The notes under the pieces: model-generated
What the model was told of the DNA's origin: nothing
Seen by the model: the letters and a program-made list of their open reading frames with translations, nothing else
The model's database searches: none
Assembly: GCA_963811985.1 (NCBI GenBank)
Contig: CAWEUH010000059.1
Span: 21,989-85,988, forward strand
DNA: 64,000 bases
Direction of reading: 5' to 3'
From: an uncultured delta proteobacterium
Lineage (GTDB): Bacteria > Myxococcota_A > Polyangia > Polyangiales > Polyangiaceae
Part shown: one piece after another, positions 35,983 through 64,000 of the stretch
How the letters are laid out: every line of letters starts with the position of its first letter
How positions within the stretch are numbered: the first letter of the stretch is position 1
Made by a program: the position numbers and the translations under genes

Positions 35983-36115
35983 TGGCTATACGGCGTTAAT
36001 GGGAGTTCTTTCCAGCCTCTGAAACCATGTTTGCTATGCCAACCCGGCGCGTCGGTGCTGACTGCGCAATTGCAGTGAGGTTGGTTCCGGTATTCCCATG
36101 TCGAGCCGAAGGCGT

Positions 36116-39471: not shown

Positions 39472-39675
39472 CTCGACTGCGCCCAGCCCGACCAGCAACG
39501 TCCTGGCGGCTGAAGCGGCCGCGCCGAACGTAAGTGTGTCGGCCAAGGGCTCCCTCCTACGAAAGACACCTTACTTGAGGTATGTTCCTGTTATGGAATT
39601 ATGGCAAGAACTGAACCGTGCGGTGACTTTGCCGTGCCGACATGCCAAGAAAACGAACCCCCACTCGCCCGGTTT

Positions 39676-42741: not shown

Positions 42742-43038
42742 CATCGACAAAGCACGGTCCGTGCCGACGCTGAGAGCCACCGGAAACGGCAGATTTTAGC
42801 CCTCCGCGGCGTGCGCACACGGGCCCGCACACTGCGCGCACAGGTATCAAGGTAGGGAGACTGATGGGCAAGCCAGAAGCCCGATGGGATCAACGCCGCT
42901 TGATCCCGCTCTGTTGATCACTCGCGGCGGCTTTGGGATAGCCATAAGCCTGACGGGGTGGACGTCCGGCAACTGCCCATTGGATCCTACCCACGGTTCG
43001 TCTATCCTCCCAGACCATCATGACGCTCAACCCAGAGC

Positions 43039-44093: not shown

Positions 44094-44105
44094 GTCTCAT
44101 CGGAC

Positions 44106-46251: not shown

Positions 46252-46340
46252 GCAAGGGGCGCAGGATTGCGCCGTGGAAGGACCAAGGGCCGTCGTCGGC
46301 GGCGCGACGAGGGACGAGGAGCGCAAGCAAACGACGGCGT
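46240..46340. repeat. ~100-bp imperfect direct repeat, copy 1; copy 2 is at 47049..47147. Together they flank the DUF433/DUF5615 module
   Basis: Shared blocks are GGGGCGCAGG(G)ATTGC(G/A)CC, ...TGGAAGGA..., ...GGCGGCG...GCGCGA(CGA)GGGACGAGG(A/G)GCG(C/T)AAGCA...GCGGCG. Each copy begins immediately after a stop codon (46251, 47036) and contains a short GC hairpin. Confidence 0.55.
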
Positions 46341-49243: not shown

Positions 49244-51049
49244 CTACGGAAACTGTACCAGCACCGGGACCCAACTTTCCACCGTTGAATTGTCGCCCAG
49301 CTGTCCGTAAGTGTTGTCACCCCAACATTGCACACCGCCGTGGACCAGCGCGCAGGCGTGCGTATTGCCTGCTGCGACGGCTGTCACACCAGAGGACAGG
49401 CCTTGGACCTGCACCGGCACTGAACTGTTTACGTTGCTGTTGTCACCCAGCTGACCGTTGGTGTTGTAGCCCCAGCATTGCGCTCCGCCGTTGACTAGCG
49501 CGCACGTTTCGGCACTACAGGCGGCAATGGCTGTCACGCCAGAAGTCAGACCCCAAACTTGAGTCGGAACCATTCTGTTTATCGTTGAATAGTCGCCTAG
49601 CTGACCGAAATCGTTTAGCCCCCAGCATTGCAGATCACCATTCGCTATTGCGCACGCCACGAAATAGCCGACAGCGATGGCCGAGACACCTGACGTGAGG
49701 CCCTGGACCTGAACCGGTACCATACTGATGGTTGTACTGTTGTTTCCGAGTTGGCCCATGTCGTTGTCGCCCCAGCATTGGACGCCGCCGTTGACGATTG
49801 CGCAAGTATTGAAGTACCCGGCCGAGATCGCGGTTACGCCTGAGGTGAGACCTTGGACCTGGACTGGTACCATACTGCCGTGCGTACTGTTGATGCCGAG
49901 CACACCATAACCGTTAAAGCCCCAGCATTGAGCGCTGCCGTTCACCAGTGCACACGTATGGTAAGCACCCGCCGCCAAGGCCGTCACCCTCGAGGAGAGG
50001 CCTTCTGCCTGAACCGGCACCAAGCTGTCGAGCGTACTGTTATTGCCGAGCTGACCGTTACCGTTACCCCCCCAGCACTGCACTCCACCGTTTGCCAACG
50101 CGCACGAGTGCGTGTAGCCAGTAGCGACAGCCGTCACTGAGGAGAGGCCTTTTACCTGAACCGGCACCAAGCTGTCGAGTGTACTGTTGTTGCCGAGCTG
50201 ACCGTACTGATTGTACCCCCAACATTGCACGCCGGATTCGAGCAAGGCACAACTGTGGTCACCCCCGCAGGCCAGGGCAGCTACGCAGCGCGCCGTTGGT
50301 ACGTCAGACCAACTGCTCAGCGAGAGGGCGGGCTGGCAGCTCTGGCAGGGATTGTTCGGGTTGGCAGCTCCAGCAATGTAGGCGACCCCGGCAATCGTGC
50401 AGATGGGCGAAATCGCAGACGTACCCCCTGCGCTGGTGGTACCGCCAGCCAAAGTGGCGCCGCCTGTTGACGGCATCCCCGCCGTGCCCCCTACGGCCGC
50501 ACTACCTCCGGTCGTGCTGCCCGCGTTGCCCCCTGAAGGTGATGTTCCTCCCGTAGCCCCACCGGTTGATTGGGTGCTGCCATTAGGCTTGGTCCCACCC
50601 GTGGCGACCGTGCCTCCAGTCGTTAACGTTCCGCCTGTCGCAACAGTGCCTCCAGTCGCAGACGTTCCGCCTGTCGCAACCGTGCCTCCAGTTGCCGGCG
50701 TTCCGCCTGTGGGTCTGTTTCCACCTGTCGCAACAGTGCCGCCGGTCGCCGTCTTGCCGCCTGTGGGTCTGTTTCCACCTGTTGCAACAGTGCCGCCGGT
50801 CGCCGGCAAGCCGCCCAAGTTCGGGTACCCACCTGTGCTCGCAATACCACCGGTAGCCGAGCCGCCTGTGTTGCTGGTGCCCCACGTGGACACGGTTCCA
50901 CCCGTTGCCCGCAAGTCCCCGGTGCCTTCAGAACCTCCGACAGGTGCAACACCGCCCATGCCAAGGTCAAACACGTCAAGCTCAGAGCGTGCGCCGCAAG
51001 CCATTGACGACAGGATTGCACAGAGGAACCACAGTTTGTGCCTAAGCAT
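49244..51049 (-). CDS. secreted RCC1-repeat (seven-bladed beta-propeller) protein with an N-terminal Gly/Thr-rich linker
   Basis: Lipoprotein-like signal. Long ATGGT/TGG linker. At least 7 RCC1-like repeats (CALxNGGVQCWGxNxxGQLG...VPVQVQGL). Confidence 0.8.
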   Translation of the reverse strand: MLRHKLWFLCAILSSMACGARSELDVFDLGMGGVAPVGGSEGTGDLRATGGTVSTWGTSNTGGSATGGIASTGGYPNLGGLPATGGTVATGGNRPTGGKTATGGTVATGGNRPTGGTPATGGTVATGGTSATGGTVATGGTLTTGGTVATGGTKPNGSTQSTGGATGGTSPSGGNAGSTTGGSAAVGGTAGMPSTGGATLAGGTTSAGGTSAISPICTIAGVAYIAGAANPNNPCQSCQPALSLSSWSDVPTARCVAALACGGDHSCALLESGVQCWGYNQYGQLGNNSTLDSLVPVQVKGLSSVTAVATGYTHSCALANGGVQCWGGNGNGQLGNNSTLDSLVPVQAEGLSSRVTALAAGAYHTCALVNGSAQCWGFNGYGVLGINSTHGSMVPVQVQGLTSGVTAISAGYFNTCAIVNGGVQCWGDNDMGQLGNNSTTISMVPVQVQGLTSGVSAIAVGYFVACAIANGDLQCWGLNDFGQLGDYSTINRMVPTQVWGLTSGVTAIAACSAETCALVNGGAQCWGYNTNGQLGDNSNVNSSVPVQVQGLSSGVTAVAAGNTHACALVHGGVQCWGDNTYGQLGDNSTVESWVPVLVQFP

Positions 51050-51068
51050 GGGACTGCCCGATTATACA

Positions 51069-51182
51069 CCACACAACCCTCCACGCCCGCCCCGCACCAC
51101 TCCCCGCGCGACCCTTTGACCCTGCCCCCTGCACACTGCACCTCGATCTCCAGTCGCGCAGGGAACCTGCAGTGCCGTCGCG
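51069..51182. repeat. copy 1 of a ~115-bp C-rich repeat (CACCACAC(A/G)ACCCTCC...TGCACACTGCAC...AGTCGCGCAG...TGCAGTGCCGT); copy 2 is at 55557..55668
   Basis: ~75% identity over ~115 bp by manual alignment. Copy 1 lies just upstream of the RCC1 gene start. Copy 2 lies just downstream of the beta-helix gene stop. Confidence 0.45.
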
Positions 51183-51541
51183 CCAAGAACGAGCGATGGG
51201 AAGAGTCGCCGCGGCGGGGGCCCGTGGGACTTGGCAAGCGTCATGGCTGCTTCTCGCCGAGCTGACCCGAGTTCGAGAACTCAAACAGATAAGGTGGCTG
51301 CTTTCGCCGGAAACCCGGAGGCGTTGGAAGCGAGAGGAAGGTAGAACTTGCGCTCGTCGGTGACTTACTGGGGCTGCAAGCTGTGCGCAGTCCGTTAGGC
51401 GCACCAGCGAGACCGTGTCGTTGATGCTCTGTAGAGGAGATGAGGCGCACGGACCTACGCCATCCGCTGATAATTCGGCCAGATGTCGGCCTCGTGCCCA
51501 CAGACCCTTGCCATCAGAAACCATTATGGTACTTTTCTGGT

Positions 51542-51814
51542 GTGACTCGCACAGCCCTCGCCCAGGACAGTACCGTTGCTCGGACAATTCGCTTCCCCTC
51601 TGGTCTTCGCGAGCGTATCGCAAGCGATGCCGACCGGTGTGGGCGTAGTTTCGAAGGTCAGGTGTTGGCTCTGCTACGGCGTCACTACGGAGAAGATGTC
51701 GATATAGCGCCAAGCCCGCAGGATGTTCTGGCGCTGGCGACTGCGAGTCTTGCTGATATTCCGGCCGCAGATGCCCGGACACTTTCCCGCCGACTCAAGG
51801 AAGTTAAAAAGTAG
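51542..51814 (+). CDS. vapB: ribbon-helix-helix (Arc/MetJ-type) antitoxin, VapB-like
   Basis: RTIRFPSGLRERIASDADRCGRSFEGQVLALLRRHYG is a canonical RHH N-terminus. It directly precedes the PIN toxin gene. The start is likely GTG at 51542. Confidence 0.7.
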   Translation: MTRTALAQDSTVARTIRFPSGLRERIASDADRCGRSFEGQVLALLRRHYGEDVDIAPSPQDVLALATASLADIPAADARTLSRRLKEVKK

Positions 51815-51823
51815 GCCGCCGTA

Positions 51824-52291
51824 ATGACCATCGGACCCGTTCTTCTGGATACCGATACGTTGTCGGAATTGAGTCGTGCAAACCCCGACGTGGCCGTTCA
51901 CGCTCGAGCGTACTTGCTCGAGTTCGGCCGACTTACCATCACTTCGATCACCGTTTTCGAGCGACTGCGTGGCTATCGCCAAGCATTGCGTGCGGGGAAG
52001 CCGTATCATAAGCAGATGCAAGCGTTTGAGGCGCTCGTCCAAACTTGCATTGTCCTGCCGTTTGACGAAGATGCCGCCGATGTGGCCTCAACTATCTGGT
52101 CCGCGTGCTCACGAAGCCAACGTCAGCGTTTAGGCGACATCCTTATTGCCTCTGTGGCCCTCGCACGGCAACTCCCCTTGGTCACGCGCAACCGGCGAGA
52201 CTTCGAAGCTCTGGGCACGGCATCCGATGTGGATCTTCGTCTGCTGGATTGGACGATCGCCGCCAAAACAACGGCGAAGCGAATTCAGTGA
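51824..52291 (+). CDS. vapC: PIN-domain toxin VapC
   Basis: Conserved PIN acidic residues (LLDTDTLSE..., ...FDEDAADV..., ...GDILIASVAL...TRNRRDFE). Confidence 0.85.
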   Translation: MTIGPVLLDTDTLSELSRANPDVAVHARAYLLEFGRLTITSITVFERLRGYRQALRAGKPYHKQMQAFEALVQTCIVLPFDEDAADVASTIWSACSRSQRQRLGDILIASVALARQLPLVTRNRRDFEALGTASDVDLRLLDWTIAAKTTAKRIQ

Positions 52292-52303
52292 GGGCGCCAT
52301 AAA

Positions 52304-52403
52304 GCGCTTGCAGTTGGCGGCTAGGCCTTCTTATGGGTCTGTCTCAGCGGCGGCAGTGGCTACGCCACAACTATACTGCCGCCGCTGGTTGCTGCGTTAT
52401 GAT
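52304..52403. repeat. copy A of a ~100-bp conserved element (second copy at 54947..55046), containing a 12-bp perfect inverted repeat AGCGGCGGCAGT / ACTGCCGCCGCT
   Basis: Shared blocks are CGCTTGCAGTTGGCGGCT, a ~41-nt variable segment of equal length, GGCAGTGGCT.CGC.ACAA.T.TACTGCCGCCGC and TGCGTTATGATG. In copy B the stem carries a U-G-compatible change. Confidence 0.5.
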
Positions 52404-52547
52404 GATATCCACTCGACAACCGAGGATCGCTACTTTGCGCTGGGACGCACGAACCCAGGGCGGCAATCGAGGTCAGAGTGTAGCGTGCAGTGGCGTCACC
52501 CGGTTCACTTCTGCAACGCCAAATTGGTCACCGTCAGGCTCGCCAAT

Positions 52548-52790
52548 TCACGGCTGCAACGTCGAATTGGTCACCGTAGCGCTCAGTGCATTGATCCCAA
52601 ATGCCGACCCAAGGTTCGTCACGCTCCCCTGTTGCAACTGAGTCCAATGTCCGCCCGTATTGCCGGTAATCGTCGTATCCCGAATCGTAATGGTGCCGGT
52701 CCAGTCGTTGCTGGTCATGAACACGCCGCCGCCGAAGGCGTTGGTGCCCGCAGCATTTCCGGTGCTTTGGTGCCCCCAGTGTGTGGGAGT
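52548..52790 (-). pseudogene. 3'-terminal fragment paralogous to the C-terminus of the beta-helix protein gene at 55674..57269
   Basis: It encodes ...SNDWTGTITIRDTTITGNTGGHWTQLQQGSVTNLGSAFGINALSATVTNSTLQP, near-identical to the last ~65 aa of the 55674 gene. It has no upstream N-terminal or central region. Confidence 0.6.
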
Positions 52791-53086
52791 TGATTGACGG
52801 CCGCGGGTGCTCGCTTCGCTGCGCGCCCGCGCGGCCCCCCAAATCTGTGCTCGCTCCGCTTTGCTCCGCTGCGCAGATGGGGGAGCCTCACCAACTTGGC
52901 GGCAATCTGCGAGTTTCGACCGGTCGAGCCGCATGTACCGATCTGCCACGCGAGCGGAGTTCTTCACGTGTGATTGTGCGAGGCAACTCGAGACCCAGCA
53001 AATCAGCCGGTCTCCGCTTGGCAGCGCAACCATCGCGCCATGCGCCGGCGAGGCACGATGGTCCCGGCTAGCGCCTGTCACGCTGC

Positions 53087-53545
53087 TTGCGCAATGGGTC
53101 GCGAAGCCCAGCTGATTTGCTGGGCCCCGGAGGTGCCAAGTCAGCTCAATCACGCAAACATTCGAAGACTCAAGCGCTCCTAGCCGAGCGTGCCTACGTT
53201 TTGCGGTGCAACCCTACCCGCTCGGAGCAGGTTCTCTGGCAAGAACTTCGCGCTAATCGGTTTGGAATTGCCTTTCGCCGGCAAGTGCCAATCGGCGGCA
53301 AGTACATTGCAGACTTCCTAGCCCCGTCAATCCGGCTGGTCATGGAAGTGGATGGCGGCGTTCATCGTCAGCGGCGTATTGCTGACGCCAGGCGTGATAG
53401 GAATATGAGGCGCCTGGGGTATTATGTCCTTCGTTTGGATGCGGAGGTTGTGCTCCGGAATTTGCCCGTTGCGGTCGAAATTGTTCGGGTGGCTGCCGCA
53501 GGGGCGGCACGGTCAGAACGGCTCGGCAATTGCCCGTCGCCGTGA
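53087..53545 (+). CDS. DUF559 domain protein (Vsr-like endonuclease fold)
   Basis: SEQVLWQELRANRFGIAFRRQVPIGGKYIADFLAPSIRLVMEVDGGVHRQ... is the DUF559 signature. Confidence 0.7.
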   Translation: MRNGSRSPADLLGPGGAKSAQSRKHSKTQALLAERAYVLRCNPTRSEQVLWQELRANRFGIAFRRQVPIGGKYIADFLAPSIRLVMEVDGGVHRQRRIADARRDRNMRRLGYYVLRLDAEVVLRNLPVAVEIVRVAAAGAARSERLGNCPSP

Positions 53546-53853
53546 CACAGCTCTACGGCATGAGGTCTTCGCGACTCGATGCGAACCACGCTCCCAACTG
53601 TGGCAGTTATTGCCTTATGCGGACCTGGATTTATCGAGATATGCCGCGATTGGGATCGGAGAATGTGCGAAGACATGGCACGGTGCGCGCGGCCAGTATT
53701 CGGATATACAGACCGGGGATTCTTGGGATAGGCTGATCGGGTCAATTACCAGTTGGGCAGACCGACGACTTGGACACAGTTCGACCTAGCACAACAGGGC
53801 CTAAGATTGCAATCTCGCAAGGCCAAACGCAGAGGAAACTGAAAGGGCTTTCG

Positions 53854-54212
53854 ATGTCAATCGGCGATAACGCTAAGGGCTTCCACGATGTGACCATAGT
53901 TGCAAGTAACGTTGACGAACTCCGTCGTTTCTACGGCGAGCTAGGATTCAGGCAAGTCGTCGATCGCGGTAATGACCTCGCCGTATTCCTCGTAGGTGCG
54001 AATGAGCTCGCTATTCATACTTCACCTACACGACCTACCAAGGCACTCGTGCTTTCTGTCCTCGTAGATGATCTGGAACCCATTCAACGCCAAGCCGCAG
54101 AACTTCGGGATCCAATTCGAAGGTCCCGCACCAACGCGACCTGGACTAATTGGAATCGCACTGCTCGATCCCAACGGAAACAAAATTGAGTTCCTGAAGC
54201 CCGACGCTAATT
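53854..54212 (+). CDS. VOC-family (glyoxalase/bleomycin-resistance fold) protein with an apparent 1-nt frameshift near 54103-54108
   Basis: The N-terminus is FHDVTIVASNVDELRRFYGELGF. The expected C-terminal motif ...GIALLDPNGNKIEFLKPDAN* is encoded in the +1 frame and ends at 54212. Confidence 0.65.
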
Positions 54213-54264
54213 GAATCCGCGTCCACGTGAGCCGCTTCATTGGGCGAACGATGGGACCAGCGCT

Positions 54265-54552
54265 CTATGCCGCAGAGTCGATGTTCTCGCGCACGATTCG
54301 CGGGTGACGTGCGGCGATGCGTAGCAAGGCTAGTCCAGGACCGTCCGGCTTCACCCTGTCCTGCTCCCAGTTGCGCAGGGTGTGAACACTGATACCGAGC
54401 GCCTCCGCGAATTGCTCCTGTGTCAGACAAATAAATCGTCGCAGCGCGGCTACATCGCCTGGCTCGAGGTTGCCCGCAATAATTCGCCTTCGTTGTGCTC
54501 GAGTCAGGGCTCGACTGAGTTCTTCTCGAGTTAGTTCTTCCCGGTCGTTCAT
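54265..54552 (-). CDS. brnA: BrnA-type antitoxin (HTH)
   Basis: MNDREELTREEL...LEPGDVAALRRFICLTQEQFAEALGISVHTLRNWEQDRVKPDGPGLALLRIAARHP. Overlaps the brnT stop by 4 nt. Confidence 0.8.
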   Translation of the reverse strand: MNDREELTREELSRALTRAQRRRIIAGNLEPGDVAALRRFICLTQEQFAEALGISVHTLRNWEQDRVKPDGPGLALLRIAARHPRIVRENIDSAA

Positions 54553-54839
54553 CGTAGACTCTCCACGTATTCGGCGTACAATTTCTCTTCGGTTTTGGTG
54601 GCCCACCAAGCGCTGATGATCCGTACGAGGTCGTCCGCGCGCTCCGTCCAGACAACCAATACCAACCCGCGCCTTATCGGTCCGATGGATTTGAACCTAT
54701 CCTCTGTCTCGCTGTGGTTGACGTCGTACACTTCCAAAACGGGTGCATCCGTGGTGAAAAGCTCGCTCGCTTCCTCGAAGGACACGTCGTGGAGGCGCCT
54801 GTTCCGCTCGGACTTCTCTGGGTCCCATTCGAAACGCAC
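54549..54839 (-). CDS. brnT: BrnT-type ribonuclease toxin (DUF497)
   Basis: MRFEWDPEKSERNRRLHDVSFEEASELF... is the DUF497/BrnT signature. Toxin-first BrnTA gene order. Confidence 0.85.
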   Translation of the reverse strand: MRFEWDPEKSERNRRLHDVSFEEASELFTTDAPVLEVYDVNHSETEDRFKSIGPIRRGLVLVVWTERADDLVRIISAWWATKTEEKLYAEYVESLR

Positions 54840-54946
54840 GCGTCATTATAAGCTATTAGCTTACATCGTCAAGTCACGCGGTGGACCGTGCCTACGGTTC
54901 CGGGAGAGCGCTCTTCCGAAGCTATGGCGCAGAGCCGCCCAACAAA

Positions 54947-55046
54947 CGCTTGCAGTTGGCGGCTTTGCCTGCTGGGGGGTCGTGGTCGTCGGTGGCAGTG
55001 GCTTCGCAACAATTGTACTGCCGCCGCCTGCTCTTGCGTTATGATG
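54947..55046. repeat. copy B of the ~100-bp conserved element (see 52304..52403)
   Basis: ~75% identical to copy A, with a conserved stem-loop and the conserved terminal TGCGTTATGATG. Confidence 0.5.
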
Positions 55047-55114
55047 GGTTTGGCCCGACTTGATGGGCCGCAACTGAGGCGCAAAGTCGTTATGCCTCTT
55101 TGCTGCCCCGGCCG

Positions 55115-55402
55115 TCACCGCTTACCCTCCACCAACCGCACCAAGGTGCCCGTGATGCGATTGACCCGATTGAGCGTCGAGCCGTCAAGCGCATGAACGT
55201 AACCAAAGGCCTGAGCCACCTCCAAACAGGAAAAACTCTCCCGCATGGAGCCAAGAGCGGAGTGGTAGCGGGCTGTGCGCAGCTCACCGCGGGAATACAT
55301 GCCTTCGGCCAAGTTCAAGGCGACGCTGCTGGAAGCGCGGCGCAGTTGCCGCCCGAGATCACGGTCACGACGCTCAACTTGAGCCAGCAAGGGCCGTAGC
55401 AC
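55115..55402 (-). CDS. four-helix-bundle protein (TIGR02436-like, '23S rRNA intervening-sequence protein' family)
   Basis: RQLRRASSSVALNLAEGMYSRGELRTARYHSALGSMRESFSCLEVAQAFGYV is characteristic of this family. Confidence 0.75.
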   Translation of the reverse strand: MLRPLLAQVERRDRDLGRQLRRASSSVALNLAEGMYSRGELRTARYHSALGSMRESFSCLEVAQAFGYVHALDGSTLNRVNRITGTLVRLVEGKR

Positions 55403-55467
55403 GCTGGTAGACTGGACAACGACGAGCAGAGGCAGGTCGCAAACTCGAAGTGACGACGAGAATTGTG

Positions 55468-55635
55468 GTCAGCGTGCAGAGTGCAGAGTGCAGCGTCAGG
55501 GTGGCACGGGTTGGGTGTTGTGGGGCGGGCATGGGGTGGAACGCGGGGCGTGACTCACCACACGACCCTCCCCACACAAGCCGCGCCACCCCCCACACGA
55601 CCCTCTGACGTTGCACACTGCACTCTGCACGCTGA
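55468..55635. repeat. large imperfect palindrome: 31-bp arms (55468-55498 and 55605-55635, 29/31 complementary) around a ~106-bp G-rich/C-rich spacer
   Basis: The left arm is TCAGCGTGCAGAGTGCAGAGTGCAGCGTCAG. The reverse complement of the right arm is TCAGCGTGCAGAGTGCAGTGTGCAACGTCAG. The right arm belongs to the 55557..55668 repeat copy. Confidence 0.5.
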
Positions 55636-55668
55636 TCTCAGTCGCGCAGCGACTTTGCAGTGCCGTTA
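55557..55668. repeat. copy 2 of the C-rich ~115-bp repeat (see 51069..51182)
   Basis: Manual alignment gives ~75% identity. Confidence 0.45.
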
Positions 55669-55673
55669 CCCGG

Positions 55674-57269
55674 CTACTTCTGCAATGTCGAGTTAACCAC
55701 GGTGGCACTTAGCGCATTGATCCCAAACGCGCTTCCAAGGTTCGTGACGCTGCCCTGTTGCAGTTGAGTCCAAGATCCGCCGGTGTTGCCCGTGATCGTC
55801 GTATCCCGAATCGTGATCGTGCCGGTCCAGTCGTTACTCGTCATGAACACGCCGCCGCCAAAGGCGTTGGTGCCCGCGGCGTTGCCAGTAATTGTGTCGC
55901 CACAAAGAATGATGTTTGTTGAGGAGCCGCCGTCTTGGTAAATGGCGCCGCCGTTGCCTCCGGAGCCGATTTCATTTTGGCCGTTGTTGATGACGGAGCA
56001 TTGCGTTGCGTCGTCGTTGTTGGCGTCATGCCCGGTGGCTTTGTTGTTTTGAAAGACACTGTTGTAGATGTCAAGTTCGGCGAAGAGGCCCCCGAGGGCA
56101 CCGGCGTTGGCGGCTTGGTTGCTGGTGAACGTGCTGCCGACAATGAGGGCACCGTGCTTGCTGCCAAGGATGTAGATGGCGCCGCCACCCGTGTCGGGCC
56201 CGAGAAGCGCGGCCTGGTTGTTCGAAAATGTGCAGTCGATGACCGTGAGGTTGCCATCGCGCATGTAAAGGGCTCCGCCCTCTCCGTCGTCGTAGCCTTG
56301 GGAGCACGGTGCGGGCGCCGTGGGAATCGCCTCTGTGGGCGTGGTCTTGCCGTTGACAAGCGTCAGATGTTGCAGGGTGACGCGTGTCTCGGTCGCCATG
56401 AAGTTGGCGCTGTTGTAGTTTAGAATCTGAACGCTCCCGCCGCCGTCGAGTGTGATCAAGTTGCCGCCGTCAATCACCGTGTTCTTGGTCGTCGGCAGAT
56501 TCATCGTCGCCGTTATTGCGATGGTTTTTGGTGCCGTGCCGCAGTTGAATGTGATGATGCCGCCCTTGGTCACGGCCGTGTTGAGCGAGCTGAATGTGCA
56601 ACTGTCCGCGGTTCCCGTACCAATCACAGACGTTGGGCTGGATACGTCAACCAGGGCGGCGCCTGCCGGCAAGGCAATCGAGCATTGGCCGGGGCTTGAA
56701 GAACCCGCCGTGCCGGTTGCGCCCCCTGTCGAAGACTTGCCTCCGGTCGTTTGAGTGCCGCCCGTCGCGTTCGCGCCCGCCGCCGCGGACTTGCCTCCGG
56801 TCGCTTGCGTGCCGCCCGTTGTATTCGCGCCCCCCGTCGCGGACTTGCCTCCAGTCGCATTCGCTCCGCCCGTCGATGGCTTGCCGCCCGCGGCATTAGC
56901 GCCACCGGTGCCAGACTTGGAGCCGCCGGTGGCATTAGCGCCGCCGGTGCCTGCGCCGCCTAGGCCTGCCTGGCCTCCAGTTGCCGCGTTGCCACCTGTG
57001 TCAGCGATCGAAGTCGTTGACGAGCTGCCACCCGTCGCTTCAGCGCCCCCTGTCGTACCTGACGAAGTCCCGCCCGTGTCGCCTGTGCTCGCGCCGCCCG
57101 TGTCACTGCCCACTGCGCTTGTGCCGCCCACTGCGCTTGTGCCGCCCACTGCGCTCGTTCCGCCCGCTGCGCCGGTGCCGGCGGGTGAGCCAGAACAGCC
57201 AGCCGTCAAGAGCAGTACTGCGAACGATACGGACCCGAGCTTTGGATGGACGGAGAGTGTGCTTTGCAT
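55674..57269 (-). CDS. secreted lipoprotein with a Gly/Thr/Ala-rich linker and a right-handed parallel beta-helix (pectate-lyase-like) domain
   Basis: Lipobox ...AVLLLTAGC. TGG/ATGG linker. Repeated NxxxGGxxxxxG and TITGN beta-helix rungs. Its C-terminus is duplicated at 52548..52790. Confidence 0.7.
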   Translation of the reverse strand: MQSTLSVHPKLGSVSFAVLLLTAGCSGSPAGTGAAGGTSAVGGTSAVGGTSAVGSDTGGASTGDTGGTSSGTTGGAEATGGSSSTTSIADTGGNAATGGQAGLGGAGTGGANATGGSKSGTGGANAAGGKPSTGGANATGGKSATGGANTTGGTQATGGKSAAAGANATGGTQTTGGKSSTGGATGTAGSSSPGQCSIALPAGAALVDVSSPTSVIGTGTADSCTFSSLNTAVTKGGIITFNCGTAPKTIAITATMNLPTTKNTVIDGGNLITLDGGGSVQILNYNSANFMATETRVTLQHLTLVNGKTTPTEAIPTAPAPCSQGYDDGEGGALYMRDGNLTVIDCTFSNNQAALLGPDTGGGAIYILGSKHGALIVGSTFTSNQAANAGALGGLFAELDIYNSVFQNNKATGHDANNDDATQCSVINNGQNEIGSGGNGGAIYQDGGSSTNIILCGDTITGNAAGTNAFGGGVFMTSNDWTGTITIRDTTITGNTGGSWTQLQQGSVTNLGSAFGINALSATVVNSTLQK

Positions 57270-57610
57270 GGTTCTCAAATGACCCCCCATCCGAGCAGAC
57301 GGCTCACTCAGGGCGCGTTCAGCCTGAAAAGCCCCGCGTTTCCGTGCCGCCGTGCCAAAAAGCAACCGGGGGCGCGCCACTGAAAACGATGTCGCACCGA
57401 GCCAGCACTTGGAATCGCTGGCATGGCCGGATGCGAATCGACGAGGTCGCGTCGATTTGGCGATCGGGCCTGCAGGGTTGCGGTTGATCGAATCCGTTGC
57501 GTCGCCACACGTGGCACTGACGTAATCGTTGATGCGGCGTTGAAGTATCGTATGTTCGCGCCGTGGCTAGCGACCCTAACGCACGAGACTTGTCGATCTC
57601 GAGACGAGCT

Positions 57611-57757: not shown

Positions 57758-58288
57758 GTCCGATTCAGACCGATCGTCGCGGTCGCGCTGATGGCTGCGA
57801 TCGGCGCGCTCGGGTTTGGTGGCTGCAGCAGCCACTCGGGGCCCTATTGTCAGGGTGGGCAGTACTGCGCCTGTGCCAACGGCGCCGAATGCTACCTTGG
57901 CTGCGAAGCAGACGGCTGCAACCTCGAGTGTTCGAACACGGCGCATGCTTGCGGAACCGTGTGCGGCAACCAATGCACCGCCGTGTGCCATGACACGAAT
58001 GATTGCAGCGCCTCGTGCGGCGATGGCTGTAACCTCGATTGCCACAATACGGCCTCGTGCGGTGCCCAGTGCGGCGCCAATTGCACGTACAGTTGCCACG
58101 ACACGACTCGCTGCGGTGTGCGCGTCGGCCCCGAGAGCACCGTCACCTGCGATCACTTGCCCACGTGCATCGTCGAATGCGCGGGCACCTGTACCGTGAC
58201 GTGCACGAACGTCGATAGTTGCTCGGTAACCTGCGCGTCCGGGGTCGCCGCCTCGGACAATGGTAATGGTACGTATGTGTGTAGCTAG
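57758..58288 (+). CDS. cysteine-rich repeat lipoprotein (Myxococcus-type cysteine-rich repeat)
   Basis: Lipobox ALGFGGCSS, then ~10 tandem repeats of C-x3-C-x3-C-x5-C type (CEADGCNLECSNTAHACGTVCGNQCTAVCHDTNDCSASCGDGC...). Confidence 0.65.
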   Translation, partial: VRFRPIVAVALMAAIGALGFGGCSSHSGPYCQGGQYCACANGAECYLGCEADGCNLECSNTAHACGTVCGNQCTAVCHDTNDCSASCGDGCNLDCHNTASCGAQCGANCTYSCHDTTRCGVRVGPESTVTCDHLPTCIVECAGTCTVTCTNVDSCSVTCASGVAASDNGNGTYVCS

Positions 58289-58334
58289 GAATTCTTTTTG
58301 GCCCCCGCCCTTGGATTTGCTTGGTCGCGTTGGC

Positions 58335-58943
58335 ATGGCGCTCGCAATCGCCCTCTTCGCAGTTTCTGTGACGCGAACCGGACTTGCGCAGGGAATCATC
58401 CGAAACCCGGGGGATCACATCGATTACGTGGCGGAACTCGAACCACACTTCTTGCTCAGCCCCTTTGACCCGCCCGGCGACACGAGTGGAACTGGCTTTG
58501 GCCTCGGCCTGCGCGCGACGATTCCGATCGTCAAAAATGGCTTCATCAGCAGCATCAACAACTCTATCGGCATCACATTCGGGCTCGATTGGTTGCGCTA
58601 CTCGGGGCAAGACGTCACCTACGGCCCGTGCGTGCAATGGGTTCCTGGCCTCAACGGCACATCCATTTGCACGCAAGTTGGCAGCCCGTACGGCGGCTCC
58701 GCGGACTACTTCTATTTGCCGGTTGCCATGCAGTGGAACTTCTGGTTGCACCCGCAATTCAGCGTGTTCGGCGAACCGGGCCTCGTCATTTACGACAGAC
58801 GCCCCAGGGACTACGGGAACTCGAACGTCGGGCTCATACCTATGCTCGACCTCGGCGGCCGCTGGCATTTCGCAAAACCCGCCGCCCTCGTGTTTCGCTT
58901 CGGCTACCCGACATTCTCACTCGGGGTTTCGTTCTTTTTGTAG
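58335..58943 (+). CDS. hypothetical outer-membrane beta-barrel-like protein
   Basis: Signal peptide MALAIALFAVSVTRTGLAQG. Alternating hydrophobic beta-strand pattern. C-terminal ...FSLGVSFFL. Confidence 0.6.
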   Translation: MALAIALFAVSVTRTGLAQGIIRNPGDHIDYVAELEPHFLLSPFDPPGDTSGTGFGLGLRATIPIVKNGFISSINNSIGITFGLDWLRYSGQDVTYGPCVQWVPGLNGTSICTQVGSPYGGSADYFYLPVAMQWNFWLHPQFSVFGEPGLVIYDRRPRDYGNSNVGLIPMLDLGGRWHFAKPAALVFRFGYPTFSLGVSFFL

Positions 58944-59042
58944 TGCACTCACGGAACACCCTTTGGCGTCGAGAGTTGCGTGACGGAATTTCGCCGGGTG
59001 TGCCGACTCCTGCCCGGCCGCGAAAGCGCCGGTTGACAGAGT

Positions 59043-59357
59043 ATGTGTTTGAGCACATACTTCATCCAAGTGGCAACTGTCATCTACGGTGATTTCGAGT
59101 GGGACGAGGAAAAAGCCGTCCCAAACTTGGCGAAACACGGCGTAGCGTTCGAGGAAGCGACTACGGCAGTCGTGGATCCTAATGCTGTGTTTCTGTCAAA
59201 CGATGCCGACGCGGAGGGTCGCCTTATGGCAATTGGAATGTCTCAACGACTAAATGCTCTGCTTGTTGTCTTTGTCGAGCGCGGCACACGCGATCGCCTA
59301 ATAAGTGCCCGCTATGCGACTCGAGAGGAGGAGATTTTGTATGAACAAGGCAATTAA
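59043..59357 (+). CDS. second BrnT-like toxin (DUF497)
   Basis: GDFEWDEEKAVPNLAKHGVAFEEATTAVVDPNAVF... is the DUF497 signature. Confidence 0.75.
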   Translation: MCLSTYFIQVATVIYGDFEWDEEKAVPNLAKHGVAFEEATTAVVDPNAVFLSNDADAEGRLMAIGMSQRLNALLVVFVERGTRDRLISARYATREEEILYEQGN

Positions 59358-59662
59358 GAGAGGAGAGCCGAGCAACCAATCGCTACTGGAGATGCCGGAA
59401 CTGGACTTGACAAAGGCGAGAATACTAGGCCGAGGCTTGAAGAAGGATAGGCGTCTACCTTTGCGCGCCATGCGTGAGGCAGTTGGAGCAACTCAAGAGG
59501 ATATTGCCGACAAATGGGGATGGATCAGAGCGAGATTTCACGGATTGAGCAACGAGACGACCTGAAGGTCTCTACATTGCGTCGATACGCGCAGGCACTG
59601 GGCGCTGAGATTGAAGTGACCGCCGTACTCGGCACCGGGCGCCGAATTCGGTTGGAGATTTA
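59341..59662 (+). CDS. second BrnA-like HTH antitoxin, with a 1-nt frameshift (A-run AAAA to AAA) near 59510
   Basis: The N-terminal part is MNKAIKRGEPSNQ...EDIADKW. The HTH C-terminus (MGMDQSEISRIEQRDDLKVSTLRRYAQALGAEIEVTAVL) continues in the -1 frame up to the stop at 59660-59662. Confidence 0.65.
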
Positions 59663-59689
59663 GCGGGATTGTCGCAATGGATTCGGCTT

Positions 59690-60007
59690 TCAAACCTTCC
59701 GGGGCTTTGAAGCTTCGGTCCCACCAGGTCTCGCTTTGCCCGGAACGGATAGAATTTCTACATTGTACTTCACCAATCGTTGCTTCATCACCCTTTGCGA
59801 TAGCGGATTGTTGTCAACGAGGATGAAACTACGATTGAGCTTTGCACATGCCTCGCCGACCGTGCCGCTGCCGGCGAAGAAGTCGAGGACCGTCTCGCCG
59901 GGGTTGCTGTGCACTCGCACGATGCGTTCGATGATGCCGAGCGGTTTCTGCGTTGGGTAACCGGTCTTCTCTTTGCCCGTCGGGCTCACGATCGTGTGCC
60001 ACCACAT
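59690..60007 (-). pseudogene. C-terminal fragment of a beta-class N6-adenine/N4-cytosine DNA methyltransferase; the N-terminal catalytic half (DPPY) is missing and the break coincides with the low-GC junction
   Basis: TQKPLGIIERIVRVHSNPGETVLDFFAGSGTVGEA is the C-terminal AdoMet-binding region of PF01555-type methyltransferases. The ORF begins abruptly at 60007, where GC content collapses. Confidence 0.7.
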
Positions 60008-60187
60008 GTCCGTCGGAGCACAGCGGATATATTCATTCCCGTAAGCATCATCTGCCCTGTATCAGTAGACTGAACCCACCCAAATGTGGAAAATGCCGAA
60101 GAAATCCCATTTATGTGTATTAAGTAACTGGTTAATGTAGTAGCATCCCAAACAAGATTTTGTTGTAGTGTAGCCATGTTTACCCTC

Positions 60188-62498
60188 CTACCTTAATTGA
60201 ACAGTCCCTGACCATGAAGTTGACCCACTTGATATACTTAGTACCAACTTATCATCAGCGGCTACTGCTAGTGGGCTAGAAACTAATGATGTAAATGTGC
60301 TCACAGTTCCAGCGGCAGTTCCAGCCAACAGAGTTATGGGGGCTGTAAAAATTGAAACCCCGTTCTTCAATATGTTGAACGTAAAATTGATACTTGGGTC
60401 TGAAGTTATTGTGTACATTTTACATGTTGTCAAAATATTGCTAGCTCTCGGAGCAAGCGCCCAACAAGCTGTGGTACTTACAGTACCATTACCTATAACA
60501 AATGTTACCAACGCCCCTTGGGACGCCAAAGTAATCCGCCCTTTAATATCCACTGTGAGATTAGGGTTTGCATAACTTCCTGCTGTAACACCCGATACAG
60601 CAAGCGTAGCTTGTTGACTTCCCGTGCCCGGTCCAGCTATAACATCACCTGTAAGTTGAGTGATACCCGCTGTGCCAGCTATAGCTGAAAGCACACCACC
60701 CACAACTGTAGTAGTTGTGCCGTCTGGAACCACCGCACCCACTGTACTGTTTGTAGCAAGAGGAAGGTCTGGAGCTTCAAGACTTCTAAAAGTAGGGGCT
60801 GTAGCAGCCCCTGAAACAGGACCTGCATAAATCAAGTTTGCAGATTGAGCTAACTTTTGTATGGTTAACGTTCCAGATTCTGTAAGGGGAGAACCTGTTA
60901 CAGAAAATTCACCTGGAACCACAAAAGCAACACTACCAATACCATTCGAGGCCGATGTAATTCTCCCCTTGTAATCCACAGTAATGTGAGCACCCACATA
61001 GCTCCCTGCTGCGACGCCTGTATTTGCTAACGTTGTACTCTGACTACCTGAACCTGGACCAGCACTAATGTCCCCTGTGAGTTGAGTAATACCCAGTGAA
61101 CCGCTTGCTACGCTTATAACCCCATTGGAAATAGAAATAGTCGTACCATCTGGTTGTACAATACCAGAGGCATACGTTGTAGCATTTGGTAAATCAGACG
61201 AAACAAGCGTTCTAAATGCTGGAGAAGCCGACGTACCACTTGAAGGCCCTGCATAAACAGTATGAGAGTTTTGACTAATGGCTGTAACTACAAAAGTACC
61301 TGAAGATGTTATAGGAGTACCAGATACAACAAATTCGTTAGGCATACTTAGTGCTACGCTAGTTACTGTTCCTCCACCAACACTTCCATTTGAAGCGGCA
61401 GTAATGCGACCCTTGGAATCAATTGTAATATCAGCAAGCGTGTAGCTTCCAGCCGTAACTCCAGTTGCTGATAAAGTATGACAACTTCGCTACCTACGCC
61501 CGGTCCAGCTATAACATCACCTGTAAGTTGAGTGATACCCGCTGTGCCAGCTATAGCACTAATAACCCCATTGGCAACTGTAGTTGTTGCGCCGTCTGGA
61601 ACTACTGCACCTGCTAATAAAGATGTGGCTAATGGTAAATCACTATTGGTTAAGCCACGAAACACCGGAACAGCATCTGAGCCTGATGCCGGACCAGCAT
61701 AGATTGTATTAATCTTTTGCAATGCCTTAGAAAATGCTAGCGTTCCATTGGAGGTTGGAGACCCGGTTACGGTGAACTCAGATGGTGCTGACAATCCAAC
61801 GCTTACTGTATTATTGGAAGCTGAAGTGATACGCCCTTTAGCATCCACAGTCAAAGTGGGAGTATAATATGTTCCTGCTGTAACACCTGATGCAGCAAGT
61901 GTGGCTTGTTGACTTCCTACACCTGGACCAGCAGTTACATCGCCTTGCAATTGATTAATAGCGGCAGCACCTGCTACCGCAATTCCTGATGTTACTATGA
62001 TGGTCAACCATCAGGTATGATTGCACCTGCAAGGCCAGAAGTTGCCAATGGCAGGTCCGCTGAGGTTAAAGCACGAAATGTTGGTTGAGCTACAAAACCT
62101 GCTAACGGTCCGGCGAACACAGTAAGAGCAGGTTCATCTGGAAATCCTTCTTGACCAATAGTTGCCGTGATTACACCATCAACTACTTTAGTGGTAGTCC
62201 CATCAGGTTTAACAATACCGGCGATTAAGTTGGTTGCAAGAGCAGCGGTTCCAAATGAGGTTGTCATGACCCCTGAAGTGCTTACAGGAGATGTAACCAC
62301 TCCTTCCACTGACACTGCAGTAATGGCCCCCGTGCCAGGACCCCCAACAGGAACAAAGGCTGACCCATTCGCGATAAACACTTGTTGGGAATCTTCATCC
62401 CATACCAGCAACCCCTCCAAAGCCTTGAAACTGGTTGGGAGGTTAGCTATATTTCCATGCGGTATTTGGAGTTTTCCCGTAAGGCCAGACAGACTCAT
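60188..62498 (-). CDS. phage tail-fibre-like repeat protein, split over three ORFs (62004..62498, 61363..62007, 60188..61345) by two frameshifts; lies in the low-GC block
   Basis: Recurrent unit ...ITQLTGDVxAGPGxGSQxATLAxSGVTAGSYxxPxLTVDxKGRITxAS... in all three ORFs, typical of phage tail-fibre repeats. ORF 2 ends in junk after GPGVGSE. Near-identical intragenic repeats are at ~60600 and ~61500. Confidence 0.7.
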
Positions 62499-62776
62499 CT
62501 ATAATTCCTTTTCCTACTAAGGAAAGTGGCAGTCAAATAACTTGGGGGAGCCCTAAGCTCCCCCAAGTTATTTATATTTTCTTGTATTTATACTGCTATT
62601 CATCCTCGAATAGCCCAGCTTCCTGTTTATCTAGAACATCAAGGAGCTCTGAAATATGGGGTGTTGTAGCTGTATTCTCAGGAACTTCATCCAATTGCAT
62701 CTCTACAGTGCCCCCACTCGTGTGCATGGGGGCTGCACTGCCCTTGCAGACTGTTCTGGGCTCCGTTGTATAGTCT

Positions 62777-63213
62777 TTATACCCGGCGGCTTCTCAGGGC
62801 GCTGGCGTTTGGCACAGCAGCAGGGCGAGCTATACGAGCCATTGTTTGCACGTTTTCACAAATTGCAATAACACCCCCAGTATCCCCTTCTTCAATTTCA
62901 CCACCACTATCTTCAAAACCCCCACCCCTAACACCAGGAGGATAATGAAAATGAACCGGAGCCTTTTGAGCCTCCATAATCGCTTCTTCCAAACGCTCTC
63001 CGATAATAAACTTCAATAGGGACAAACCGGCATCTTGATGGTGAGCCTCTCACAAGCGTGAAACACCCTTTCTGAAATCTCATCTTTCACCAGTGCTTCT
63101 TTGCATTGAATATCCTTGAATTCAGAATACATCGAACACCCACAGGACATACTTACTTCAAGCCGTGTAATGGTGGTCTTGTTTACCTTCATTGCCATAT
63201 GTTTCTTCCTCAA
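62777..63213 (-). CDS. hypothetical small protein, apparently frameshifted (ORFs 63013..63213 and 62777..63025 overlap by 13 nt)
   Basis: Low-GC ORFs with a CxC...C-containing N-terminal part and a Gly/Glu-rich C-terminal part. No family recognised. Confidence 0.3.
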
Positions 63214-63319
63214 AAAGTTGCTGACGCTGGTTAATCATATCGTCAGAAAGCATTACTCCTGATTTTCATCTTTCACTAATTCAGGAATCAAAGGCAGCTC
63301 AGGTGTTGAAACTCCACTA

Positions 63320-64000
63320 TCATCCGTTCCGACTATGAGTGTAGGTGCAGATTCTCGGTGCTGGGCTGGGAGCCATGAGAACTACCGGATAAGTTACAAG
63401 TGGGCGGAAAAGGTCATCTCCACTCTCATTCTTTCCCGCTGGAATAACAAGAGCAGCAGTTTTGACATCAATCTGCCTAAGCTGAACCTCTTTTGGGTCA
63501 CTAACGAGCACCCACCCGGCTCGCGGCGCCGTGACGATGCCCGTGGCGCGCAGTTTCCTTACGATCTCCCCGGCCTCGAGCGGCGGCTTGCGGAAGCTCA
63601 CAATGCCCGCGCCCGTTTCCGGCGTTCGATCTCCCAACAGCTCATATCCACGCGCCTGGACGCCCTCGGCAATGCGATCGCCGAGACTCTGCACAGCCGG
63701 GGCGATTCTTCGATGCCGACTTCAAGTAAAAATTCAATTGAAGCCTTTAATCCGAAGCATCCAATGGTATTTAGAGTTCCACACTCATAGCGGCCGGCAT
63801 CCGGCCTCAAGGTCATATCGCGGGAGGCATAGTCGTCGTACCGGGCCACGTTGGTCCAGCCGAATTCCACCGGCTCGACGCGCTCCTGAAGGCTTGGTTT
63901 ATGTAGAGGATGCCGCATCCCTCCGGCCCCAACATCCACTTGTGACCGTCGGCTGCCAGCGCATCCACCCCGCAGGCGCGCACATCGATAGCAATACATT
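63320..64000 (-). CDS. aminotransferase class V / cysteine-desulfurase-like protein, 3' part (gene continues beyond the window end); apparent frameshift near ~63650
   Basis: A PLP-fold C-terminal domain is spread over two overlapping ORFs (63598..63999, 63320..63694) with class-V-like segments (…ECGTLNTIGCFGLKASIEFLLEVGIE…, …GIVSFRKP…). Confidence 0.6.

What the first reader, a model, noticed from the sequence alone, without database searches (positions are those of the whole stretch)
60008..63300. Sharply low-GC block holding a frameshifted phage tail-fibre gene, inserted next to a truncated DNA methyltransferase
GC drops from ~65% to roughly 45% between ~60.0 and ~63.3 kb. The block encodes a ~770-aa tail-fibre-like repeat protein (GPGxGSQ...SGVTAGSY...LTVDxKGRIT units) broken by two frameshifts, plus a small frameshifted ORF. 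Its left edge coincides exactly with the abrupt N-terminal truncation of a beta-class N6/N4 DNA methyltransferase (59690..60007). This looks like a remnant of a foreign phage or phage-like element from a lower-GC donor that destroyed a methyltransferase gene, possibly a restriction-modification system.
Basis: partly seen in the sequence, partly recalled or inferred. Interest (0 to 1): 0.6.

Follow-up and report, generated by a model that had tools for sequence, protein, structure and literature searches.

The report
Dead phage tail-fibre fragment in myxobacterium
A 3.5-kb low-GC stretch in this myxobacterial genome is a broken, non-functional piece of an uncultured phage's tail-fibre region, wedged between two truncated bacterial genes; this is an ordinary kind of genomic debris, and an assembly artefact is not excluded.

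Summary
GC is 0.459 in 60,016-63,511 against 0.591 elsewhere (not 65%), and the right edge is at about 63,511, not 63,300.

On the minus strand the block is collinear with a gene run found on uncultured phage contigs of 31 to 435 kb. In order it holds:
- the 3' part of a 90-aa gene;
- a remnant of an 83-aa gene;
- a 183-aa gene in three frames;
- a complete 770-aa fibre gene in three frames, with four ~145-aa repeats and a C1q/TNF-like head;
- the first 52 codons of the next gene.

Both ends fall inside phage genes. Both flanking bacterial genes are cut: a PF01555 DNA methyltransferase lacks its N-terminal part, and a class-V aminotransferase lacks its last 22 codons. There is no integrase, no tRNA and no att repeat longer than one 6-bp hexamer.

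The best reading is an inert phage DNA fragment fixed by illegitimate recombination together with a host deletion, not a simple insertion into the methyltransferase and not a classical prophage.

Two caveats remain. The contig is probably from a metagenome-assembled genome, so a chimeric join (about 0.2) or consensus indels could explain the junctions or the frameshifts. No independent assembly covers the junctions. Interest is low.

The parts
59043..59357 (+). BrnT-family toxin gene, intact ORF (context on the left flank)
   Evidence: PF04365 match, E = 1.5e-21. The Logan short-read contig L165 is identical to the window up to 59,175.
59341..59663 (+). XRE-type HTH antitoxin-like gene with a 1-nt frameshift at about 59,510 (GACAAA|TGGGG)
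   Evidence: Two overlapping ORFs.
59690..60016 (-). C-terminal fragment of an N6/N4 DNA methyltransferase; motif I (FAGSG) is kept, the N-terminal catalytic part is missing
   Evidence: PF01555 at 73.4 bits, profile positions 143-213 of 221. Homologues read ...GKT|PTDVWWHTIV, and the window's homology begins at PTD.
60016..60021 (.). Left junction; hexamer GAGCAC on the + strand
   Evidence: GC step. Phage homology runs to at least 60,022 and methyltransferase homology starts at or before 60,016. The hexamer was found.
60022..60177 (-). First 52 codons of the phage gene that follows the fibre gene, cut at the junction
   Evidence: 52% identity to residues 1-52 of the 377-aa protein of L001, and 50% to the protein encoded at 11989-13146 of L006.
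60188..62498 (-). Tail-fibre-like gene, complete from start to stop but in three frames (frameshifts at about 62,005 and about 61,485); 770 aa once repaired
   Evidence: ORFs and translation. Alignment to P0001-P0007 at 53-57% identity. PHROG and tblastn hits. Four repeats. Predicted model and fold matches.
62514..62573 (-). Fibre-gene leader GACTGCCACTTTCCTTAGTAG, conserved in phage relatives, preceded by a perfect 17-bp hairpin (62535-62573)
62596..63198 (-). Homologue of a 181-183-aa phage protein, read in three frames (frameshifts at about 63,047 and about 62,790)
   Evidence: tblastn of the three pieces against L001, L002 and L006.
63164..63253 (-). Remnant (last ~30 codons) of an 83-aa phage gene; stop codons lie upstream of it
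   Evidence: 53% identity to residues 51-80 of the 83-aa protein of L001.
63323..63511 (-). 3' part (from codon 12) of a 90-aa phage gene, fused in frame to the aminotransferase ORF
   Evidence: 48-58% identity to the corresponding proteins of L001, L002 and L006.
63506..63511 (.). Right junction; the same hexamer GAGCAC on the + strand
63509..64000 (-). Class-V aminotransferase / cysteine-desulfurase-like gene that runs off the window. It lacks its last 22 codons and carries two frameshifts (about 63,885 and about 63,700).
   Evidence: Sequence. Homologues continue ...AGWV|RTSPHFYNSPSEIDRLLEALP.

Best explanation
The block at 60,016-63,511 is an internal 3.5-kb fragment of the virion-structural region of an uncultured tailed phage. 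It lies in an accessory, rearrangement-prone part of a Myxococcota chromosome.

It carries one complete gene, a tail-fibre or receptor-binding protein. That protein has an N-terminal anchor, four ~145-aa shaft repeats and a C1q/TNF-like head. It also carries pieces of four neighbouring phage genes. It does nothing now: every gene is truncated or out of frame, and no promoter-to-stop reading frame survives.

Inferred route. A linear piece of phage DNA was joined into the chromosome by illegitimate recombination (end joining or microhomology-mediated). This replaced the host DNA that once lay between the end of an aminotransferase gene and the middle of a methyltransferase gene. The fragment was then left to decay.

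Shown: the phage origin, the fragment's limits, the truncation of both flanking genes, and the absence of integration machinery.

Inferred: the joining mechanism, its timing, and that the frameshifts are real mutations.
For: - Composition is foreign: GC 0.459 against 0.591, z = -8.1, and third-position GC 0.26-0.34 against 0.64-0.70.
- The gene order (90-aa, 83-aa, 183-aa, fibre, next gene) is collinear with L001, a 102-kb contig. It is largely collinear with L002-L004, from 16- to 405-kb contigs. All of these genes also occur on the IMG/VR contig L006.
- Those contigs carry a phage clamp loader, primase, endonuclease VII, HNH endonucleases and virion structural proteins.
- Fibre relatives occur in 182 IMG/VR stretches.
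- The fibre matches proteins annotated as tail fibre or minor tail protein in Ralstonia phage phiRSL1 and Achromobacter phage Motura.
- The predicted head domain (pLDDT 82-93) matches C1q/TNF-like trimers and phage tail-fibre models.
- Phage homology stops inside genes at both ends.
- The aminotransferase lacks 22 C-terminal codons and the methyltransferase lacks profile positions 1-142.
- There are no tRNA genes, no flanking repeat longer than 6 bp, and no phage-like sequence elsewhere in the window.
- The neighbourhood at 43-59 kb already holds toxin-antitoxin genes, broken defence-type genes and a truncated gene copy, so it tolerates such debris.
Against: - No independent assembly covers either junction. 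Identical short-read contigs from run ERR11594402 support 35,356-40,107 and 58,159-59,175 only. Every ORF of the block is on record from the source contig alone.
- The right flank is closest to Acidobacteriota-labelled proteins, while the rest of the window resembles Myxococcota metagenome-assembled genomes. This would also fit a chimeric contig.
- There are 7 frameshifts and no nonsense codon in 59.3-64 kb. One frameshift lies in an antitoxin beside an intact toxin gene. That pattern would also fit consensus indels in a Nanopore-only assembly (for the method used for the sister genomes).
- No empty site was found, so the order of events is unknown.
- The block's GC is well below that of its known phage relatives, whose fibre genes are 0.53-0.59. 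The donor therefore remains unidentified.
Confidence: 0.6

Rival explanations
1. Assembly artefact. The contig is a chimeric join in a metagenome assembly. A phage-derived stretch sits between DNA of a myxobacterium and DNA of another organism, and the local frameshifts are consensus errors caused by very low read support.
For: - The source is an 85,988-bp contig held only by NCBI/ENA.
- The closest genomes are Microflora Danica metagenome-assembled genomes, which are Nanopore-only, assembled with Flye and polished with one round of Medaka.
- The right flank is closest to Acidobacteriota-labelled proteins.
- Frameshift density is about 1.5 per kb in 59.3-64 kb, against about 0.05 per kb elsewhere. 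All look like 1-nt deletions and none is a nonsense codon.
- The break points look random, falling inside genes on all four sides.
- No other assembly confirms the junctions.
Against: - Two independent false joins 3.5 kb apart would be needed.
- The junctions are seamless, with no adapter-like sequence (the adapter sequence was taken from memory).
- Both junctions carry the same hexamer, with 3-4 nt of plausible microhomology. A random chimera would not be expected to show this.
- Frameshifts, plus an in-frame TAA, also occur at 43-46 kb inside clearly myxobacterial context. Broken accessory genes are therefore a property of this genome or assembly in general.
- About 45 kb of long ORFs in the same contig are intact, and 5.8 kb are identical to short-read contigs.
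Confidence: 0.2
2. Decayed prophage. A temperate phage integrated here by site-specific recombination, and later deletions removed everything except 3.5 kb, along with parts of the neighbouring host genes.
For: - The content is phage structural genes in native order.
- The region is deletion- and rearrangement-prone.
- The pseudogenisation suggests age.
Against: - The window has no integrase, excisionase, repressor, att repeat or tRNA target.
- The relatives examined carry their own replication genes on contigs of 102-435 kb. In the stretches read, these show no integration module.
- The GC gap of 13 points to the host is large for a resident temperate phage.
Confidence: 0.15
3. Functional fibre gene. 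The tail-fibre gene is expressed, for example for a tailocin or a phage-like particle, and the two frame changes are programmed or are sequencing errors.
For: - The gene is complete from start to stop and has no in-frame stop codon once repaired.
- Its conserved leader and upstream hairpin are retained.
Against: - No sheath, tube, baseplate or other particle gene is in the window.
- The neighbouring phage genes are truncated or degraded.
- The frameshift sites carry no slippery-sequence pattern and lie at non-equivalent positions of the repeats.
- Homologues are single ORFs.
Confidence: 0.03

Closest known systems
Cryptic phage remnants and horizontally acquired pseudogene blocks in bacterial chromosomes
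   Same: Foreign base composition, phage structural genes, disrupted reading frames, and a location among toxin-antitoxin, defence and IS-related accessory genes.
   Different: It has no integrase, att site or tRNA. It is only 3.5 kb long and both ends lie inside phage genes. It is flanked by two different truncated host genes, so it looks like a captured fragment plus a deletion rather than a worn-down prophage.
Tail fibres and minor tail proteins of large phages (Ralstonia phage phiRSL1 tail fiber protein; Achromobacter phage Motura minor tail protein), and fibres with C1q/TNF-like heads
   Same: Sequence similarity of 32-38% over 20-48% of the protein. A repetitive shaft. A C-terminal jelly-roll head that matches C1q/TNF-like trimers and predicted phage tail-fibre models.
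   Different: No Pfam family and no solved structure matches by sequence. Only three database proteins share the head domain. The gene here is frameshifted twice.
Uncultured phage contigs L001 (Logan SRR404151, 102 kb), L002 (JGI 3300072491, 405 kb) and L006 (IMG/VR UViG_3300010379_000031)
   Same: All five genes of the block occur on L001 and L006, and three of them on L002. L001 and L002 keep the window's gene order; L006 does not. All share a conserved leader upstream of the fibre gene. Protein identity is 45-65%.
   Different: Their GC is 0.51-0.57, and 0.53-0.59 in the fibre gene, against 0.46 in the block. None is close enough to be the donor. In L006 the small genes lie 7 kb away on the other strand.
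Beta-class N6/N4 DNA methyltransferases (Pfam PF01555)
   Same: The flank fragment keeps the PTQKP region and the AdoMet-binding motif FAGSG, and is 65-80% identical to many such enzymes.
   Different: Only the last third is present. The catalytic N-terminal part is absent, so it cannot be an active enzyme.

Membership tests
Phage tail fibre / receptor-binding protein | Sequence similarity to proteins of phage virions annotated as tail fibre or tail protein | tested here: met
   PHROG phrog_27494, virion structural protein, E = 5e-12. tblastn hits to the phiRSL1 'tail fiber protein' and the Motura 'minor tail protein'. 182 IMG/VR stretches carry relatives.
Phage tail fibre / receptor-binding protein | Encoded within a virion structural module of a phage genome | tested here: met
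   Met in the relatives. In L006 the fibre gene is preceded by a phrog_1645 virion structural protein (E = 2e-65) and followed two genes later by a weak tail-protein match. Not met in the window itself, where no other virion gene exists.
Phage tail fibre / receptor-binding protein | Modular build: N-terminal anchor, repetitive shaft, distal head domain | tested here: met
   Four repeats of 141-149 aa. The N-terminus aligns with those of homologues, one of which carries PF18454, Mtd_N. The C-terminal ~110 aa are modelled at pLDDT 82-93 as a C1q/TNF-like jelly roll. The shaft was modelled poorly, since only a monomer was predicted.
Phage tail fibre / receptor-binding protein | One intact open reading frame | tested here: not met
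   Three frames, with frameshifts at about 62,005 and about 61,485.
Prophage / cryptic prophage (site-specific integration) | Integrase or other recombinase belonging to the element | tested here: not met
   All coding capacity of the block is accounted for by five phage genes or fragments. The ORFs of at least 110 aa at 51-55.7 kb, some of them scanned with Pfam, include none. The ORFs at 55.7-60 kb scanned with Pfam include none either.
Prophage / cryptic prophage (site-specific integration) | Flanking att direct repeats, often at a tRNA or tmRNA gene | tested here: not met
   The window has no tRNA or tmRNA gene. The only repeat at both edges is the hexamer GAGCAC.
Prophage / cryptic prophage (site-specific integration) | Other phage modules nearby (capsid, terminase, lysis, regulation) | tested here: not met
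   tblastx of the whole window against L001, L002 and L006 gives only noise outside 60,000-63,530. The part of the source contig beyond 64,000 could not be read.
Beta-class N6/N4 DNA methyltransferase (PF01555) | Match to PF01555 above the gathering score, with the AdoMet-binding motif I (FxGxG) | tested here: met
   73.4 bits against a cut-off of 26.7. DFFAGSGT is present.
Beta-class N6/N4 DNA methyltransferase (PF01555) | N-terminal catalytic motif IV (D/S-PP-Y/F) and full domain length | tested here: not met
   Only profile positions 143-213 of 221 are present. The sequence upstream of PTDMWW is phage DNA.
Restriction-modification system | A restriction endonuclease gene adjacent to the methyltransferase | tested here: inconclusive
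   Downstream lies a convergent BrnT/XRE pair. The upstream side is replaced by the block. The contexts of intact homologues were not examined.
Jumbo (>200 kb) phage as donor | Relatives lie on phage genomes larger than 200 kb | tested here: inconclusive
   P0004 lies on contigs of 405 and 435 kb that show phage-type genes in the 23 kb read. Other relatives are on contigs of 31-102 kb of unknown completeness. No capsid or terminase gene was examined.

The most novel reading that the evidence does not exclude
The block may be a physical record of phage DNA captured at a chromosome break in a predatory myxobacterium. In this reading, a fragment of a large, low-GC phage, perhaps one that infects prey rather than the myxobacterium itself, was cut and ligated into the chromosome at GAGCAC sites. 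The same event would have removed the catalytic half of a DNA methyltransferase. That would link self-restriction, loss of the methylase and uptake of foreign DNA in one event, and would give a contact record for an uncultured clade of large phages.
Probability: 0.08. Interest if true: 0.5.

Novelty: new member of a known kind. Interest (0 to 1): 0.2.

Why it matters
If real, this is one more example of how bacterial chromosomes pick up and keep dead phage DNA without any integration machinery. It also gives a weak clue that an uncultured clade of large phages met this myxobacterial lineage. Its practical value is mostly cautionary: in metagenome-assembled genomes, a sharp GC island with frameshifted genes and truncated neighbours needs read-level checking before it is read as biology. 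It opens no long-standing question.

Tried and rejected
- **DNA search of cultured phages.** blastn of the block against INPHARED found nothing.
- **Searches for close relatives of the fibre.** Single-protein searches of IMG/VR and of JGI metagenomes found none.
- **Exact-sequence searches for the source or an empty site.** A 41-mer from 63.9 kb gave no match in the GTDB representative genomes. A 30-mer from the host side of the left junction gave no match in JGI metagenomes.
- **Look-ups of block and junction ORFs in other assemblies.** They are on record only from the 85,988-bp source contig. No independent confirmation and no access beyond 64,000 was therefore possible.
- **Restriction-fragment capture.** The hexamer at both junctions fits GWGCWC. 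Such sites are not depleted inside the block, with 3 seen and 3.4 expected, so complete digestion is not supported.
- **Simple insertion with a target-site duplication.** Rejected, because the flanks are two different truncated genes and the aminotransferase should continue RTSPHFY....
- **Sequence match of the fibre to solved structures or to Pfam.** None.
- **Nanopore adapter remnant at the junctions.** None.
- **Frameshift detection by third-position GC.** Too noisy at 59% GC.
- **Search for a paper naming run ERR11594402.** None found.
- **Short top hits to the methyltransferase fragment.** I first took these as a family of conserved fragments. The alignment shows they are partial or split gene calls of ordinary full-length enzymes.
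Full report
**Observation.** The window averages 0.59 GC. Every 1-kb bin from 1 to 59 kb lies between 0.54 and 0.64. Between 60,016 and 63,515 the GC is 0.459. The lowest value for any other 3.5-kb window is 0.548, giving z = -8.1. In 30-nt steps the change is abrupt at about 60,015 and about 63,515. One codon position of the fibre gene has GC 0.26-0.34, against third-position GC of 0.64-0.70 in host genes.

**Anatomy.** All coding sense in the block is on the minus strand.
- The ORFs 62498..62004, 62007..61363 and 61345..60188 join into a 770-aa protein. It aligns from its first to its last residue with intact homologues of 887-1079 aa at 53-57% identity.
- The frame changes are at about 62,005 (PDG|LTIIV) and about 61,485 (GSEVV|TLSATGVT). 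Each is explained by a single lost base.
- Upstream, 63198..62596 is a homologue of a 181-183-aa phage protein read in three frames. 63253..63164 is the tail of an 83-aa gene. 63511..63323 is a 90-aa gene lacking its first 11 codons.
- Downstream, 60177..60022 encodes the first 52 residues of the next phage gene.

**Where it comes from.**
- The best fibre homologues lie on metagenome contigs of 102 kb (L001) and 405-435 kb (L002 and its siblings). These contigs consist mostly of unannotated genes. They also carry a phage-type clamp loader, a primase, an endonuclease VII, an HNH endonuclease and a virion structural protein.
- tblastx and tblastn show that window 63,511 to 60,019 is collinear with L001 positions 8,930 to about 14,137.
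- An IMG/VR contig, L006, carries all the same genes. There the fibre gene sits behind a phrog_1645 virion structural protein.
- A 21-nt leader just upstream of the fibre start codon is conserved between the window and these phages.
- Cultured phages give only distant protein hits: the Motura minor tail protein and the phiRSL1 tail fiber protein. They give no DNA hit.
- A structure model of the last 385 aa is confident only for the C-terminal ~110 residues. These form a C1q/TNF-like jelly roll and match predicted phage tail fibres and minor tail proteins.
- The relatives have GC 0.51-0.57, and 0.53-0.59 in the fibre gene. The donor was therefore a lower-GC member of the clade and has not been found.

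**The host and the flanks.**
- The window is bacterial chromosome. It carries a GH3 glycosidase, a hybrid histidine kinase, TldD, a type II/IV secretion ATPase and insertion sequences.
- The secretion ATPase is 81-83% identical to that of uncultured Myxococcota metagenome-assembled genomes.
- To the left of the block lie the last 105 codons of a PF01555 methyltransferase, profile positions 143-213 of 221, with homology starting at PTDMWW. Beyond it lie a convergent BrnT toxin gene and an XRE-type antitoxin gene with a frameshift.
- To the right lies a class-V aminotransferase gene that stops at ...AGWV. Homologues continue for another 22 residues (RTSPHFYNSPSEIDRLLEALP). This gene also has two frameshifts.
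- Because the two flanks are different genes, a simple insertion into the methyltransferase is excluded. Host DNA was lost or rearranged as well.

**How it got there.**
- The window has no tRNA genes and no flanking repeat beyond a hexamer. It has no integrase and no further phage-like sequence.
- Both ends of the fragment lie inside phage genes.
- At the right junction the codon GTG could belong to either parent. The same hexamer, GAGCAC, sits at both junctions. I estimate a 3-7% chance of that by accident.
- This fits joining at short microhomologies better than site-specific integration.
- A restriction-fragment origin was tested and is not supported, because GWGCWC sites are not depleted inside the block.
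- I therefore favour capture of a linear phage DNA fragment by illegitimate recombination, with loss of the intervening host DNA. That Myxococcota possess end-joining enzymes is my own background knowledge and was not tested here.

**Caveats.**
- The window's ORFs are on record only from one 85,988-bp NCBI/ENA contig.
- Short-read contigs from run ERR11594402 are 100% identical to 35,356-40,107 and 58,159-59,175, but stop 840 nt short of the block.
- The nearest genomes come from a project that used Nanopore-only Flye assemblies with one round of Medaka polishing. Whether this contig comes from the same project is not known.
- Seven frameshifts lie in 59.3-64 kb. At least two more, plus an in-frame TAA, lie in a SIR2-NACHT-FGE-sulfatase gene at 43-46 kb. 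About 45 kb of long ORFs are intact.
- This pattern fits either real decay of accessory DNA or locally poor consensus.
- The aminotransferase flank is closest to Acidobacteriota-labelled proteins. That could reflect horizontal transfer or a chimeric contig.
- I put the artefact reading at about 0.2. Reads are needed to settle it.

**Verdict.** The feature is a non-functional phage-derived fragment, a new member of a known kind, and of low interest unless read-level data show something unusual about the junctions.

Noticed in passing
window 43,039-46,330 (+ strand): A large defence-type gene (SIR2_2 domain, NACHT/STAND ATPase, FGE-sulfatase domain) is broken. The SIR2_2 domain is split between frames near 43.3 kb. 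There is an in-frame TAA at 43,425-43,427 and a stop before the NACHT ORF at 44,094. A frameshift at about 45,830 splits the FGE-sulfatase domain (Pfam positions 38-97, then 98-254).
   Followed up: partly
window 60,016-60,021 and 63,506-63,511: The same hexamer, GAGCAC on the + strand, sits exactly at both junctions of the low-GC block. The estimated chance of this is 3-7%. It cannot be a simple target-site duplication, because the flanks are different genes. GWGCWC sites are not depleted inside the block.
   Followed up: partly
window 62,514-62,573 (minus strand); L001 9,979-9,999; L006 8,711-8,731: A 21-nt leader, GACTGNNNNTTTCCTTAGTAG, lies immediately upstream of the fibre start codon. 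It is conserved among phages whose proteins are only about 55% identical, and it occurs once per locus. In the window a perfect 17-bp hairpin lies just upstream of it.
   Followed up: partly
window 59,341-59,663: The XRE-type antitoxin-like gene next to an intact BrnT toxin ORF carries a 1-nt frameshift inside its HTH domain. A broken antitoxin beside an intact toxin is biologically awkward and may point to a consensus error.
   Followed up: partly
window 51,000-55,700: This stretch is rich in toxin-antitoxin genes and fragments. It holds a PIN toxin (51,824-52,291), a DUF559 protein (53,087-53,545) and an MqsA/XRE-like protein (54,265-54,609). It also holds a 210-nt, 84%-identical truncated copy (52,554-52,763) of the 3' end of the lipoprotein gene at 55,674-57,380. 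In addition there are dispersed repeats of about 105 nt (51,067-51,178 ~ 55,556-55,666; 52,302-52,404 ~ 54,944-55,046) and two palindromic stretches (52,970-53,153; 55,469-55,635).
   Followed up: partly
window 63,516-64,000: The aminotransferase fragment is 90% identical to an unnamed JGI soil protein cluster with 58 members. It is 70-77% identical to proteins labelled Bryobacteraceae, Solibacter or Sulfopaludibacter (Acidobacteriota). The rest of the window resembles Myxococcota genomes.
   Followed up: partly
window 2,850-4,439; 11,985-14,527: Two transposase genes, DDE_Tnp_1_6/DUF772 and IS66 family. The IS66 gene is directly preceded by an ORF with a DruA (Druantia) domain match.
   Followed up: no
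window 41,734-42,780; 49,244-51,049; 55,674-57,380: Three predicted lipoproteins share long Gly/Thr-rich 'GGT.ATGG'-type repeat linkers ahead of different C-terminal domains: an RCC1 repeat in one, and a region with Gly/Asn/Thr-rich repeats but no Pfam match in another.
   Followed up: no
L001 12,816-16,029: In the phage relative L001 the fibre gene is followed by three paralogous genes (388, 377 and 304 aa). They share an N-terminal ~50-aa segment (consensus roughly D.ST...F..W......GW.Q..DTGQV), followed by divergent sequence. These may be interchangeable receptor-binding proteins that dock through a common N-terminus. The block keeps only the first 52 codons, the shared N-terminal segment, of one such gene.
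   Followed up: no
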